From a virus (lineage: Duplodnaviria; Heunggongvirae; Uroviricota; Caudoviricetes): a stretch of DNA of 14,097 nucleotides. The translations under genes were made by a program, and so were the position numbers. Shown here one piece after another: positions 515 to 4,696 of this stretch; positions within the stretch are counted from its first letter, which is position 1, and each line of letters begins with the position of its first letter. The notes beneath the pieces were generated by a model that was given only the letters and a program-made list of their open reading frames with translations, ran no database searches and was not told where the DNA came from. The DNA lies in the IMG/VR virus record IMGVR_UViG_2531839662_000021, positions 1 to 14,097 of that record; one strand, written 5' to 3'.

Positions 515-1990
515 TGTCGCTGGGTTCAATTCCTGATGATATCCGCGTCCCGCTTGTCTGGATCGATATCGACAATTCACAGGTGCTGGATGGTGCATCC
601 GCGCAAAGCCGAAAAATTCTGGTCATGGGCCATGCGGTATCGTCCGGCAGCGCAGACGCCCTGTCACTGACCCGCATCACCAGTGACAGCCAGGCAGACC
701 AGCTTTATGGCAAAGGGTCGATGCTGGCTGAAATGCTCAAAATGCTGCGTCGTGCCAACACGTACACGGAAACCTGGGCTATGCCGGTTGCCGCGCCTGA
801 AGGCGCTGCCGCAAAAGCCACGCTGACCGTGCTGGGTACAGCGACTGAAGCCGGAACGGTGGCACTGCTGATTAACGGTGTGTCCGTTCAGGTGAGCGTG
901 AGCGCCGGGGCTACGAAGGAAAACATTGCAAAAGCCATTGCTGATGCGGTGACGAAAAAGCCTGCCACGCAGGTGGCCGCTGCGGTGAAGGATGATGCCA
1001 CGGATACCGTGGAGCTGACCGTGAACTGGCACGGCGTCACCGGCAACGGTGCCGACGTTCGCCTGAACTACTACACCGGTGAAGCCTTCCCGGCTGGTGT
1101 GAAGGTGACCGCTACTGCGTTTACCGGCGGCACCGGGACACCGGAAATGGCGGATGCCGTTGCGGCCATCGGCCCGGAGTGGTTTACCGATATCATCGCC
1201 CCGTTCACCGACACGAAAAGCCTGAACACCCTGCGTGATGAACTGCTGAACCGCTGGGGGCCGCTCAAAATGATGGAGGCGCAGCTGTGGACGGCGTTTC
1301 GTGGCACGCACGGCGAGACAGGCACGTTTGGTGAAACCCGCAATGACTGGCTGATTAGCTGTATTGGCACCAACCTGTCACCGCACCCGGCGTGGATGTG
1401 GGCCGCGTCATACGGCGCAACGGCAGCGTATCACCTTTGCCATTGACCCGGCGCGTCCGCTTCAGACGCTGGTCCTGACCGGCATTCTGCCGCCTGCGCG
1501 TAATGTTCGCTGGGATATGCCGGAACGTAACCTGCTGCTGCATGACGGCATTGCCACACACATGGTGGACGCCGGGGATAACGTCTGCATCGAGCGTGAA
1601 ATCACCATGTACCGGGTTAATCAGTACGGTGATGCGGATGTGTCGTACCTTGATGTGCAGTCACCCGCCACGCTGGGCCGTATCCGTTACATCATCAAAA
1701 ATCGTTTCACGAACCGTTATCCGCGCCATAAGCTGGCGGACGATGACGTGCTGGACTCACTGGATGCCGGTCAGCCGGTGATGACGCCGAAGCTGTGCAC
1801 CGCAGAGCTGCTGGATATCTGCCAGACCGAACTTATTCCTGCGGGCCTTGTGGAGAACTTCAGCGATTACAAGGACACGCTTCAGGTGACACGCGACAGC
1901 AGCGATAAAAACCGTCTGAACTTTATCTGCCACCCGAATCTGGTGAACCAGCTGCGTGTGCTGGCAGGCCTGATTCAGTTCAAACTTTAA
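514..1990 (+). pseudogene. contractile tail sheath protein (Mu gpL-like), reading frame disrupted by an apparent +1 frameshift near 1420-1440
   Basis: ORF 514..1446 (310 aa, starts MSLGSIPDDIRVPLVWIDID, GAGGGA RBS upstream) continues as protein-like sequence in the next frame (ITFAIDPARPLQTLVLTG... to stop at 1988-1990). Combined span is 1477 nt, one base more than a multiple of three; an intact gene would be about 491 aa, the typical sheath size. The frame-2 ORF upstream of about 1425 is Arg-rich junk. Confidence 0.75.
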
Positions 1991-1999
1991 GGGGGCCGC

Positions 2000-2356
2000 A
2001 TGGCAAAAATTCTTGGCATGGCGACCATTCGCGTGAATGGCCGCGAAATTAAAACCGAGGGGAAATCCACGCTGAATCCGGGCGGCTTCAGTCGCACCCA
2101 GCATATGGGCGGCGGCAAGGTCTGGGGCATCTCCAGCAAGATGGCCTCGCCGTCCATCAAGGTGACCATTGCGGCGGCAGCGGATATGGACGTGATTGAA
2201 ATCAGCAGCTGGGAAGACGTCACGGTGATGTTCTACGGCGACAATGGCCTGAACTACATGATGACGGGTTCCGCCACGGATAACCCGGCGGAGCTGGACG
2301 AGGATTCCGGCACCATCAGTGCCAACTTTATCGGTGAAAAATGCGTGAAGGTGTGA
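2000..2356 (+). CDS. tail tube protein (Mu gpM-like)
   Basis: 118-aa ORF directly after the sheath gene with AAGGGGG RBS 6 nt upstream of ATG; size and position typical of myovirus tube proteins. Confidence 0.75.
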   Translation: MAKILGMATIRVNGREIKTEGKSTLNPGGFSRTQHMGGGKVWGISSKMASPSIKVTIAAAADMDVIEISSWEDVTVMFYGDNGLNYMMTGSATDNPAELDEDSGTISANFIGEKCVKV

Positions 2357-2357
2357 C

Positions 2358-2753
2358 ATGGCTGAAATGACATTTGAACTGAAACACGGGCTTCTGACCG
2401 GCAAAGGCACGGCAGATGAAACCCTGCATAAAACCGTGAAACTGCGCGAACTGACCGCCAGCGACGTGATTGATGCACAACTGGCCGCAGAACGCGTCGT
2501 CATGGGCGGGAACGGAAAGGCGGTGGCCTACTGCTCGGAAGTGCTGATGGGGCTGGAGATGATGCGCCGTCAGGTTGCGGCCATCGGCAGCATTCCCGGC
2601 CCGCTGGACATGAAACAGCTGCGAATGCTCCACCCGGCAGACCTTGAGCTTATCAGCACGAAAGCCGCTGCGCTGGATGACATGCTTGAGGAGGTGGCAA
2701 CGCGGGGGCGACCTGATGCCGCTGGCGGCGGCACTGATGAACCTGCTGGTTAA
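2358..2753 (+). CDS. tail assembly chaperone (Mu gp41-like), short in-frame product
   Basis: 131-aa ORF between tube and tape measure genes, the conserved position for tail assembly chaperones; ATG lies 1 nt after the tube stop. Confidence 0.7.
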   Translation: MAEMTFELKHGLLTGKGTADETLHKTVKLRELTASDVIDAQLAAERVVMGGNGKAVAYCSEVLMGLEMMRRQVAAIGSIPGPLDMKQLRMLHPADLELISTKAAALDDMLEEVATRGRPDAAGGGTDEPAG

Positions 2754-2853
2754 CCTGTCCCAGCGATTCAGCATTCAGTACCTGGAACAGCTGCCCCTGC
2801 GGCAGCTGTTCCGCCTGATAAAGCAACTGGAGAAACAGCATGGCAACAGGTAA
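2358..2853 (+). CDS. tail assembly chaperone frameshift fusion product (G-GT-like), putative -2/+1 shift at G-run 2704-2708
   Basis: A second frame is open from 2644 to the stop at 2854-2856 and overlaps the 3' end of the chaperone ORF; CGGGGGCGA at 2703-2711 is the candidate slip site. The extension ends 14 nt inside the tape measure gene start. Fusion would be about 165 aa. Confidence 0.45.
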
Positions 2854-4696
2854 CCGTCTCAGCACGGAAATCATGATCAACCTTGCCGGGAACCTGACCG
2901 CCAAAGCCCGGCAGTACGGCGCAAATATGTCGCAGTTCGCCCGGAACCATCAGAAGGCCATGCGCCTTGTCAAAGCCACAACGGAGGCCGCAGGACGCGG
3001 CCTTGATACGCTGGGCAACCGCTACACGGCAATGATAGCCGGGCTTGGCAGTAGCCTAACCATCAAACAGGTTGCCGATTTTGATGCGCAGATGCGCCGG
3101 ATGGGTACGGATGCCCAGTTAACCACTGAACAGGTAAAGACGCTTCACGACAAAATCAGGGATGTATCGAACCAGAAAGATATTCGTATTGATGCCTCTG
3201 CGCTTGGTCAGGGGGCCAGCGAACTTCTGGGGAAAACCGGTGATTATCAGTATGTGGTGGACAACCTCCGCAACATGGGGTTGATGATGCAGGCGTTCGG
3301 TGTTGACGGACAGGTTGCAGCCGGGCTGATGGCGCAGTTCTGGGAAAAAAACGTCCGGGGCGCTGATGCGGTCAGTAACATGATGGACAGGCTGTATTCG
3401 CAGTTCGCAGTGGGGTCTGTCAGCGTTGCCGATGTTGCCCGCGCAGCTCCGAAACTGTTTTCCATCATTCAGGATCAGGGACCGGAAGCCATTGCCCAGA
3501 TGGGGGCATTTGCTCAGGTGTTCGCCAAAAACAAAGGCAGCATTGATGAGACGGTAACCAGTATTCAGGCCATGTATGCCTCCCTGTCGGACAAAAAGAA
3601 CATCGAGTTCCTGAAAAAAAACGGCGTTGATGTTTTTGTCAAAGGCACAAAAGACATCAAAAAGCCCTATGAACTGATGATGGAAATCCTTAAACGGGCC
3701 AAATACGACCCGCTGAAACTTCAGGATGTGTTTGATCAGACCGGGATGCAGGGGATTAAGGCGCTGCTTAACCCTGAAAACCGGCAACTGATGGAACAAA
3801 TGATTTACGGCACGATTGATCTGGGTTCCACGCAAAAGGCCGCACAGACCAATGCCGAAGGCTTTAATGCTGCAATGCAATCACTGAATAACGAATGGCA
3901 ACGTTTTGCTGAAGGGCAACTGGCAAAGCCCGTTCAGGACCTGGCGGATGCGCTCAACAGCGTGGACCAGGATACCGTCCAGAACTGGTTGCAGGTGGGT
4001 AAATATATAGCGATTGCGCTGGGTGGCATTATCGCCATCAGAAAGACGTATCAGTTCGGTAAAACCATCCACGACATCATGAATCCCAAAGGGAAAGGCA
4101 AAGGGATTCCCGGTGGCATTACGGATGTTTTCGGCTCCGGTGTGATGCCGGTTTATGTGGTTAATATGGGCAGTGGCGGGATGAATGGTAATACCGGCGG
4201 TCTGCCGGATACACCGGATTCATCGCGCAATCCCCGTAACCCACGCAATCCTCGGGGTCCGGGTAACCGTGGAGGAAAGGCAGGTAAAGGCGCTGGCATC
4301 ATTACCGGTGCTCTGGAGTTTTACGATTTTCTGACCACGCAATACGCCCTGCCGGGTGAGGTTGACAGCCTTACAAAATCCGTTGCCGGTGATGCCAGCG
4401 CCAGCCCGTGGGAGCGCGAGTTCGCGCAACAGAGTCAGGACAATCAGAAAGCGCTCGAGTCCGTCTGGCGTAAGGTAACGGACTGGTTCAACTCGCTGGG
4501 TGACAAGAACATTGCCGACCCGCGACCGTGGGCAGGTATGCAACCCACACAGAATTATCCTTTCCTTCCGCAGCAATTGCAGGGGGAGATCCGTGTGGTG
4601 GTGGAAGGTGACGCCCGCGTGAAAAGCGTCAGAGTGGATCAACCCGGCGTCAGACTCAGTGCGCAGGCTGGCGTCACCAGCGTGGAGCAAGGGTAA
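2840..4696 (+). CDS. tail tape measure protein (Mu gpN-like)
   Basis: 618-aa ORF following the chaperone pair, GGAG RBS upstream; hydrophobic segment (WLQVGKYIAIALGGIIAI) and Gly-rich low-complexity C-terminal region typical of tape measure proteins. Confidence 0.8.
   Translation: MATGNRLSTEIMINLAGNLTAKARQYGANMSQFARNHQKAMRLVKATTEAAGRGLDTLGNRYTAMIAGLGSSLTIKQVADFDAQMRRMGTDAQLTTEQVKTLHDKIRDVSNQKDIRIDASALGQGASELLGKTGDYQYVVDNLRNMGLMMQAFGVDGQVAAGLMAQFWEKNVRGADAVSNMMDRLYSQFAVGSVSVADVARAAPKLFSIIQDQGPEAIAQMGAFAQVFAKNKGSIDETVTSIQAMYASLSDKKNIEFLKKNGVDVFVKGTKDIKKPYELMMEILKRAKYDPLKLQDVFDQTGMQGIKALLNPENRQLMEQMIYGTIDLGSTQKAAQTNAEGFNAAMQSLNNEWQRFAEGQLAKPVQDLADALNSVDQDTVQNWLQVGKYIAIALGGIIAIRKTYQFGKTIHDIMNPKGKGKGIPGGITDVFGSGVMPVYVVNMGSGGMNGNTGGLPDTPDSSRNPRNPRNPRGPGNRGGKAGKGAGIITGALEFYDFLTTQYALPGEVDSLTKSVAGDASASPWEREFAQQSQDNQKALESVWRKVTDWFNSLGDKNIADPRPWAGMQPTQNYPFLPQQLQGEIRVVVEGDARVKSVRVDQPGVRLSAQAGVTSVEQG

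What the first reader, a model, noticed from the sequence alone, without database searches (positions are those of the whole stretch)
2644..2856. Overlapping frame at the 3' end of the tail chaperone gene with a G-run slip site (programmed frameshift candidate)
A second frame is open from 2644 to 2856 and overlaps the last roughly 110 nt of the chaperone gene and the start of the tape measure gene. The frame relationship is +1, equivalent to -2. CGGGGGCGA at 2703-2711 would allow GGG re-pairing after a -2 slip, giving a fusion of about 165 aa. Conserved chaperone frameshifts between tube and tape measure genes are well established for tailed phages, and I recall a -2 type for Mu, but I cannot verify that here.
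Basis: partly seen in the sequence, partly recalled or inferred. Interest (0 to 1): 0.5.

Follow-up and report, generated by a model that had tools for sequence, protein, structure and literature searches.

The report
Mu-type -2 frameshift in tail chaperone
This is the E. coli Mu-like prophage counterpart of phage Mu's known -2 ribosomal frameshift, which makes a short and a long tail-assembly chaperone from one gene; it is real and conserved but of an already known kind.

Summary
The tail chaperone gene (2358-2753, Pfam Gp41_Mu) reads CGG GGG CGA at 2703-2711. The +1/-2 frame is open from 2614 (first start-like codon 2644) to the TAA at 2851-2853, not 2856. It overlaps the tape measure start at 2840.

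The nonamer matches phage Mu's site in sequence and codon phase. Mu's GenBank record marks that site as a verified -2 frameshift. The same -2 reconstruction applied to Mu reproduces UniProt P0DJY4 (FS-gp41) exactly.

Of 125 sequences (window plus 124 loci; 40-100% identity; Escherichia to Vibrio and Pasteurellaceae), 119 carry GGGGGCGA (117 in phase; two have upstream indels). The -2 frame then runs 45-52 codons in 86 of 88 distinct sequences. Frame 0 ends after 2-14 codons and the -1 frame after 2-36. The extension is under purifying selection (dN/dS 0.19-0.28) and aligns with Mu's (hhalign E 3.6e-5).

A new detail is a Shine-Dalgarno-like element (GAGGAGG, 2688-2694) 9 nt upstream of the G run. 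It occurs in 48 of 58 distinct contexts through biased synonymous positions, but Mu lacks it. No conserved downstream RNA structure was found.

Databases do not annotate the 165-aa fusion; its tail is listed as a 45-aa hypothetical protein. Verdict: a new member of a known kind, of low to moderate interest.

The parts
2000..2356 (+). Tail tube gene, the upstream neighbour that fixes the gene-order context
   Evidence: Pfam Tail_tube PF10618, E 4e-38. PGAP annotates 'phage tail tube protein' in a 98% identical E. coli locus.
2358..2753 (+). Tail assembly chaperone, frame-0 product of 131 aa (analogue of Mu gp41 and lambda G)
   Evidence: Pfam Gp41_Mu PF23746, E 4.4e-37, and Phage_TAC_7 PF10109, E 6.9e-8. 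The exact sequence is WP_000829550.1, 'phage tail assembly protein'.
2688..2694 (+). Shine-Dalgarno-like GAGGAGG. Its GGAGG core ends 9 nt before the G run and 11 nt before the P-site GGG. It is a candidate 5' stimulator (inferred).
   Evidence: An SD-like 4-mer at -17 to -13 occurs in 48 of 58 distinct upstream contexts, against about 3.5% per 5-nt bin elsewhere. Codon -16..-14 varies in amino acid (E, S, K, T, Q) but ends in G in 91% of cases, against a 32% background. The next codon is GAG 32 times and GAA twice, against about 1:1 elsewhere. The 9-14 nt spacing is the range reported for minus-direction stimulation (PMC5009743).
2703..2711 (+). Slip site CGG GGG CGA (frame 0). tRNA-Gly on GGG 2706-2708 can re-pair on GGG 2704-2706. 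CGA is the frame-0 A-site codon.
   Evidence: The site is identical in sequence and phase to Mu (L001 1849-1857). It is in phase in 117 of the 125 sequences. At this site the codons are only CGG or AGG, then GGG, then CGA, whereas other invariant Arg and Gly residues use all synonymous codons.
2707..2853 (+). -2-frame extension of 48 codons plus TAA, the T-like domain of the fusion: GDLMPLAAALMNLLVNLSQRFSIQYLEQLPLRQLFRLIKQLEKQHGNR
   Evidence: The length is 45-52 codons in 86 of 88 distinct relatives. dN/dS is 0.19-0.28 in this frame, and both other frames contain stops. Profile-profile comparison with Mu-clade extensions gives E 3.6e-5 in register over the LPL(R/S) motif. It matches phrog_38797 at E 2.9e-34.
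2840..4696 (+). Tape measure gene, the downstream neighbour. Its start overlaps the end of the extension by 14 nt.
   Evidence: ORF of 618 aa. PGAP annotates 'phage tail tape measure protein' in near-identical E. coli loci. The next gene is DNA_circ_N, as in Mu.

Best explanation
A small fraction of ribosomes translating the chaperone gene shift two bases backwards on the G run (2704-2708). The slip happens when peptidyl-tRNA-Gly sits on GGG 2706-2708 and the slowly decoded CGA codon occupies the A site. The tRNA re-pairs perfectly with GGG 2704-2706. Translation then resumes at GGC 2707 and continues for 48 codons to TAA 2851-2853. The gene therefore yields two proteins with the same 117 N-terminal residues. 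The abundant one is the 131-aa chaperone. The rare one is a 165-aa fusion whose extra C-terminal domain is the counterpart of lambda gpGT's T domain and Mu's FS-gp41. By analogy with lambda, the shared part would coat the tape measure protein and the extension would recruit the tube protein, in a fixed ratio needed for tail assembly.

A Shine-Dalgarno-like GGAGG 9 nt upstream of the G run probably pairs with 16S rRNA and favours the backward slip.

Shown here: the site, its phase, the frames, the conservation and the coding constraint. Inferred: the -2 direction (from Mu), the roles of CGA and the SD-like element, the efficiency, and the function of the two products.
For: - The gene lies between tube and tape measure genes and belongs to Gp41_Mu.
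- The nonamer and its phase are identical to Mu, where the record states a verified -2 frameshift.
- The -2 reconstruction of Mu equals UniProt P0DJY4 / UIW09302.1 exactly (188 aa). The +1 version (187 aa) is not an exact entry in the collection.
- GGGGGCGA is in phase in 117 of 125 sequences at 40-100% chaperone identity; two more have it but carry upstream indels.
- Protein-neutral positions are frozen. The third base of the Arg codon before GGG is always G. The Arg codon after GGG is always CGA. Other invariant Arg and Gly residues use 4-6 different codons.
- After the site the -2 frame runs 45-52 codons. Frame 0 runs 2-14 codons and the -1 frame 2-36.
- dN/dS is 0.19-0.28 in the -2 frame.
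- The extension profile matches the Mu-clade extension profile.
- There is no conserved start codon for the extension. The fourth residue is M, V, T, K, Q or L in different clades. In Mu the -2 frame opens only three codons before the site.
- The SD-like element is enriched at -17 to -13 with biased synonymous sites, at the spacing reported for minus-direction shifts (PMC5009743).
- The Mu 10-mer alone gave about 14% shifting into the -2/+1 frame in a cell-free assay (bioRxiv 10.1101/2025.10.02.679949). The in vivo estimate for Mu is about 2.2% (PMC3498833).
Against: - No protein data exist for this prophage, and -2 cannot be told from +1 by sequence.
- A -1 slip on the same G run is equally well paired, so the site is not specific for -2 on pairing grounds alone.
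- No conserved downstream RNA structure was found.
- Mu itself lacks the SD-like element, so that element is not required for the shift.
- The sheath gene of this copy carries a 1-nt insertion. The prophage may therefore be defective, and the frameshift may no longer serve tail assembly in this particular genome.
- The sample of relatives is phylogenetically uneven, with many Klebsiella-type and Vibrio-type sequences.
Confidence: 0.85

Rival explanations
1. The same site and the same fusion, but the ribosome slips +1 (GGG to GGC, skipping one base) rather than -2. The product would be 164 aa with one glycine fewer at the junction (…TRGDLMPL…).
For: The +1 and -2 shifts reach the same frame. 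Four relatives have only four Gs with the extension still in that frame: Xenorhabdus L036 and L038 (GAG GGG CGA TAG), and L043 and L044 (TCG GGG CGA). In these a -2 re-pairing would mismatch at the first position. A slow CGA A-site codon is also a classic +1 context (own knowledge). The cell-free reporter cannot separate -2 from +1.
Against: Mu's identical nonamer is recorded as a verified -2 shift, and the curated product carries the extra Gly. The fifth G (2704-2705, the protein-neutral third base of the Arg codon) is invariant in all in-phase loci. It is needed for -2 re-pairing but not for +1. The SD-like element sits 9 nt upstream, which is the minus-direction spacing, not the 3 nt reported for +1.
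Confidence: 0.1
2. The extension is a separate small gene translated on its own from ATG 2716 (45 aa), as PGAP annotates it. No frameshift takes place.
For: PGAP calls WP_001127483.1 a 'hypothetical protein' at this place. The exact 45-aa sequence is listed on at least 1000 contigs. PHROGs holds the extension as its own family, phrog_38797.
Against: The start codon is not conserved. The equivalent codon is GTG, ACG, AAG, CAG or CTG in relatives, and Mu has no ATG, GTG or TTG in the first 25 codons after the site. GGAGG lies 21 nt upstream of ATG 2716, too far to serve as a ribosome-binding site. The conserved sequence starts exactly at the slip site (G-[DE]-...), upstream of 2716. The synonymous constraints on the slip site would have no explanation.
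Confidence: 0.03
3. RNA polymerase, not the ribosome, slips on the G run, deleting one G or adding two. A minority of transcripts then encode the fusion in a single frame.
For: The homopolymer G5 is at the right place. One relative (Erwinia tracheiphila, L042) has one G fewer in the DNA and encodes the fusion in one frame, which shows the fused reading is tolerated.
Against: Reported bacterial transcriptional slippage needs runs of about 9 A or T (PMC5009743); five Gs is short. The invariant CGA codon and the SD-like element act at the ribosome and would have no role in transcription.
Confidence: 0.02

Closest known systems
Phage Mu gp41 / FS-gp41 (Mup41; UniProt P0DJY4; Xu, Hendrix and Duda 2004, PMID 15469818)
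   Same: Same Pfam family (Gp41_Mu). Same position between tube and tape measure genes. Identical CGG GGG CGA in the same phase. Same target frame. The extension has similar length (48 versus 51 aa) and is homologous by profile comparison, sharing the LPL(R/S)xxF/L motif.
   Different: Chaperone identity to Mu is only about 48% over the aligned part. The N-terminus is 20 residues shorter and the frame-0 tail is longer (14 versus 7 aa). The window has an SD-like element 9 nt upstream that Mu lacks. There is no experimental evidence for this copy.
Lambda gpG / gpGT and P2 gpE / gpE+E' tail chaperone frameshifts
   Same: Same logic: two products from one gene between the tube and tape measure genes, with a rare C-terminally extended form (PMC5009743). 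The chaperone also matches Phage_TAC_7, the family that includes P2 E.
   Different: Those use a -1 tandem slip on heptamers such as G GGA AAG (own knowledge). This site is a single-tRNA slip on a G5 run into the -2/+1 frame.
E. coli dnaX -1 frameshift, for the stimulator only
   Same: An internal Shine-Dalgarno-like sequence lies 9-14 nt upstream of the shift site (PMC5009743). Here GGAGG is 9 nt from the G run.
   Different: dnaX also has a 3' stem-loop and shifts by -1 at about 50% efficiency. No conserved 3' structure was found here. The stimulatory role of the SD-like element is untested.

Membership tests
G/GT-type tail assembly chaperone frameshift (Xu et al. 2004) | Gene located between the major tail/tube gene and the tape measure gene | tested here: met
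   Tube 2000-2356, chaperone 2358-2753, tape measure 2840-4696.
G/GT-type tail assembly chaperone frameshift (Xu et al. 2004) | A second ORF in another frame overlaps the 3' end, fills the gap to the tape measure gene and has no start of its own | tested here: met
   The -2 frame is open 2614-2853. No start codon is conserved among relatives.
G/GT-type tail assembly chaperone frameshift (Xu et al. 2004) | A slippery sequence in the overlap, conserved among relatives beyond what the proteins require | tested here: met
   117 of 125 sequences carry the motif in phase. The synonymous positions within it are frozen.
G/GT-type tail assembly chaperone frameshift (Xu et al. 2004) | Both the short product and the fusion product are made, and both are needed for tail assembly | not testable with these tools
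   This needs protein expression and genetics. The fusion sequence is absent from the 15-billion-protein collection.
Mu gp41 family (Pfam PF23746) | Score above the Pfam gathering threshold over the full domain | tested here: met
   126.9 bits against a cut-off of 27, covering profile positions 1-107 of 107.
Mu-type -2 shift site | CGG GGG CGA in this codon phase, with the extension in the -2/+1 frame | tested here: met
   Window 2703-2711 compared with Mu L001 1849-1857.
Mu-type -2 shift site | The shift is -2, so an extra Gly sits at the junction, and not +1 | not testable with these tools
   Inferred from Mu only. The fifth G and the SD spacing point the same way.

The most novel reading that the evidence does not exclude
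Most Mu-like myophages outside the Mu/SfMu and Pasteurellaceae clades, including this one, may drive their -2 shift with a dnaX-style internal Shine-Dalgarno stimulator placed 9-12 nt upstream of the G run. That would make this the first natural -2 site with an rRNA-pairing stimulator. It might also give a higher or tunable ratio of fusion to chaperone than Mu's roughly 2%. The same G5 run might in addition yield a -1 product that terminates after two codons here, as at the arterivirus -2/-1 site.
Probability: 0.4. Interest if true: 0.45.

Novelty: new member of a known kind. Interest (0 to 1): 0.27.

Why it matters
It matters mainly for annotation. In this widespread E. coli, Shigella and Salmonella prophage family the fusion product is not annotated at all. 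Its C-terminal part is filed as a 45-aa 'hypothetical protein' on more than a thousand contigs and as a PHROG of unknown function. The comparative set also shows that Mu's unusual -2 site is not peculiar to Mu. It is an almost invariant 8-mer across gammaproteobacterial Mu-like phages. Most of them carry an upstream SD-like element that could be tested as a stimulator of -2 shifting.

Tried and rejected
- Megablast of 1900-3300 against the phage collection found nothing. Relatives were reached by tblastn and pattern scans instead.
- The primary paper (PMID 15469818) is not held. A full-text search for GGGGGCGA returned only unrelated papers, and a search for Mu-like + Shine-Dalgarno + frameshifting found nothing relevant.
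- I looked for a downstream stimulatory RNA. The window fold has z -1.41 (98 nt) and -1.20 (50 nt). RNAalifold on 16 diverse sequences gave -0.06 kcal/mol with no covarying pair. Folds of single relatives had z from -2.3 to +1.1, and 0.0 for Mu. The local hairpin at 2717-2733 has an invariant GCCG/CGGC core in enteric relatives, so it is uninformative and confounded by the peptide sequence. I rejected it as a family-wide feature.
- Counting variable columns per codon position on groups defined by extension length was saturated, because distant clades were mixed. I replaced this with within-clade counts and pairwise dN/dS.
- Pfam and NCBIfam have no family for the extension.
- The seven apparent exceptions to the motif were examined one by one. 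Two are indel-damaged copies that still carry the site, four are 4-G variants, and one is a fused form.
- Chance was considered for the bare observation. Neither the ORF nor the 8-mer is significant alone.

Full report
**What the window is.**
The window is the tail module of a Mu-like prophage of E. coli. The gene order is:
- sheath, 514-1990;
- tube, 2000-2356 (PF10618);
- a 131-aa chaperone, 2358-2753 (Gp41_Mu PF23746, E 4.4e-37; also Phage_TAC_7);
- a 618-aa tape measure gene, 2840-4696;
- DNA_circ_N, then a gpP-like baseplate hub, and further baseplate genes.

The region 1900-3300 is 96-98% identical to prophages in about 50 complete E. coli genomes. PGAP annotates the same genes there.

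**The observation.**
In the chaperone frame the sequence reads ACG CGG GGG CGA CCT ... TAA, with the stop at 2751-2753. CGGGGGCGA is at 2703-2711. The frame offset by +1 (equivalent to -2) is open from 2614 to the TAA at 2851-2853. A -2 slip after GGG 2706-2708 gives a 165-aa product of 117 shared residues plus 48 new ones, GDLMPL...EKQHGNR. The end of the extension overlaps the tape measure start by 14 nt.

Neither the open frame nor the 8-mer is remarkable alone. GGGGGCGA occurs once against 0.91 expected, and the window contains 115 ORFs of at least 40 aa.

**Comparison with Mu.**
In phage Mu (AF083977) the homologous gene reads GAA CGG GGG CGA GTG. The nonamer and the codon phase are the same, and the extension lies in the same relative frame, ending just before the tape measure gene. 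The record annotates the joined CDS Mu_56 as 'verified -2 translational frameshift in PMID 15469818'.

I applied the same -2 rule to Mu. The 188-aa product is an exact match to UniProt P0DJY4, 'Probable tail assembly protein FS-gp41', and to UIW09302.1. The 187-aa +1 version is not present as an exact entry.

Reviews list Mu as the natural bacterial case of -2 frameshifting, with about 2.2% efficiency (PMC5009743; PMC3498833). A recent preprint measured about 14% shifting into the -2/+1 frame for the Mu 10-mer alone in a cell-free system.

**Conservation.**
I collected 124 loci encoding relatives of the chaperone, at 40-100% identity. They come from annotated phages, GTDB genomes and IMG/VR. 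The hosts include Escherichia, Klebsiella, Raoultella, Pluralibacter, Aeromonas, Vibrio, Photobacterium, Shewanella, Marinomonas, Marinobacter, Plesiomonas and Pasteurellaceae.

- GGGGGCGA is present in the same phase in 117 of the 125 sequences, counting the window.
- One further sequence, L019, is a 271-bp contig that ends before the site.
- Of the seven remaining exceptions:
  - L018 and L020 still carry the motif and the extension but have indels upstream;
  - L036 and L038 (Xenorhabdus) and L043 and L044 (Pantoea persica, Sodalis) have a 4-G version with the extension still in the +1/-2 frame;
  - L042 (Erwinia tracheiphila) has one G fewer in phase, so chaperone and extension are fused in one frame.

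The constraint is on nucleotides, not only on amino acids. At other invariant Arg and Gly residues of the protein, all four to six synonymous codons are used. At the site, only CGG or AGG, then GGG, then CGA occur. The third base of the first Arg codon (2705) is silent in frame 0 and is not translated in the -2 frame, yet it is always G. It is exactly the base needed for GGG re-pairing two positions back.

**The extension is coding.**
- Downstream of the site, among 88 distinct sequences, the -2 frame runs 45-52 codons in 86. The two exceptions are a contig end and an internal indel. Frame 0 terminates after 2-14 codons and the -1 frame after 2-36.
- The periodicity of variable positions switches at the site. 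Upstream, frame-0 third positions are free. The first free position downstream (+8) is a third position of the -2 frame.
- Within clades, second positions of the -2 frame vary least.
- Pairwise dN/dS between the window and relatives at 62-76% identity is 0.19-0.28 in the -2 frame. Both other frames contain stops.
- The extensions share G-[DE] at the junction and an LP[LI]R-x-L motif.
- Profiles of the window-like and Mu-like extensions align in register (hhalign probability 71%, E 3.6e-5).

**Rivals.**
- *Independent initiation at ATG 2716*, as PGAP implies. This is unlikely. That codon is GTG, ACG, AAG, CAG or CTG in relatives. Conservation begins at the slip site, upstream of 2716. Mu has no start codon early in its extension.
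- *Transcriptional slippage.* This is unlikely for a run of five Gs, and it would not explain the frozen CGA or the upstream element.
- *A +1 slip.* This cannot be excluded by sequence, and the 4-G variants hint that some relatives may use it. The invariant fifth G, the Mu precedent and the position of the upstream element favour -2.

**Stimulators.**
No conserved 3' structure was found.

There is, however, a Shine-Dalgarno-like element upstream. It is GAGGAGG at 2688-2694 in the window, with the GGAGG core ending 9 nt before the G run. An SD-like 4-mer at -17 to -13 occurs in 48 of 58 distinct contexts, against a background of about 3.5% per 5-nt bin. This makes it the strongest SD peak in the 450-nt region, above the tape measure ribosome-binding site.

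The codon at -16..-14 encodes E, S, K, T or Q but ends in G in 91% of cases, against 32% elsewhere. The next codon is GAG 32 times and GAA twice, against about 1:1 elsewhere. Frame-0 third positions -14 and -11 carry 1.55 and 1.30 bits, against 0.14-0.37 for the neighbouring third positions.

The literature gives 9-14 nt as the spacing for minus-direction stimulation and 3 nt for +1 (PMC5009743). Mu, SfMu and the Pasteurellaceae phages lack the element. It is therefore an accessory, and its role is inferred, not shown.

**Mechanism proposed.**
A single P-site tRNA-Gly slips back two bases on the G5 run while the A site waits for the CGA decoder, helped by pairing between the SD-like element and the anti-SD. 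The result is a minor 165-aa fusion alongside the major 131-aa chaperone. By analogy with lambda gpG/gpGT, the shared domain binds the tape measure protein and the extension recruits the tube protein.

A -1 slip on the same run would pair equally well. In the window it would end after two codons (GCG ACC TGA, 2708-2716).

**Annotation status and verdict.**
The 165-aa fusion is not in the 15-billion-protein collection. Its last 45 residues are listed as a 'hypothetical protein' on at least 1000 contigs and form phrog_38797, 'unknown function'.

The finding is correct and well supported. It is an orthologue of a known, experimentally established recoding event, so it is a new member of a known kind. 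The upstream SD-like element is the only part that may be new.

Noticed in passing
window 1431-1440 (sheath gene 514-1990): The tail sheath gene is broken by a 1-nt insertion: CACCTTTGCC here against CACCTTGCC in the intact 491-aa gene of E. coli RM11911. It splits into ORF 514-1446 and a shifted remainder ending at 1990. This is either a pseudogene (a defective prophage) or a sequencing error in a T run.
   Followed up: partly
L036 1163-1178, L038 1539-1554 (Xenorhabdus); L043 about 1512-1526, L044 about 1542-1556 (Pantoea persica, Sodalis): These variant sites have only four Gs: GAG GGG CGA TAG, with the stop directly after CGA, and TCG GGG CGA. The conserved extension is still in the +1/-2 frame. 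A -2 re-pairing would mismatch here, so these relatives may shift +1 instead.
   Followed up: partly
L042 1530-1545 (Erwinia tracheiphila): The G run has one G fewer in phase (GAA CGG GGC GAG TGG). Chaperone and extension are therefore encoded as one continuous ORF (…ERGEWLQCRNEIEQ…). This is a natural fusion-only form, possibly a decaying prophage.
   Followed up: no
window 2716-2853; L002 2317-2454: PGAP annotates the tail of the extension as a stand-alone 45-aa hypothetical protein (WP_001127483.1). The exact sequence occurs on at least 1000 contigs of Escherichia, Shigella and Salmonella. PHROGs holds it as phrog_38797, 'unknown function'. This is a systematic annotation gap caused by the unrecognised frameshift.
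   Followed up: yes
window 2708-2716: A -1 slip on the same G5 run re-pairs perfectly and then reads GCG ACC TGA. It would give a product truncated by 12 residues. In 42 of 88 distinct relatives the -1 frame also stops after two codons, but elsewhere it runs up to 36 codons, so this is not a conserved feature.
   Followed up: partly
window 2717-2733; L100 1544-1589, L004 1844-1889: The window has a 7-bp GC-rich hairpin starting 5 nt after CGA, which is not significant (z -1.2). The Vibrio/Shewanella clade has a longer hairpin 4 nt after CGA with z about -2.2. No structure is shared across the family, and Mu has z 0.0.
   Followed up: partly
window 2840-4696 versus L002 2441-4234: The tape measure protein is 618 aa here but 597 aa in the 98% identical RM11911 prophage. 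This length polymorphism would predict a different tail length. The indel was not located.
   Followed up: no
L018, L020 (Klebsiella sp. WOUb02), L113: These copies have extra indels inside the chaperone gene or the extension while keeping the slip site. They may be assembly errors or decaying prophage copies. Strain WOUb02 carries at least five copies of this module on different replicons.
   Followed up: no
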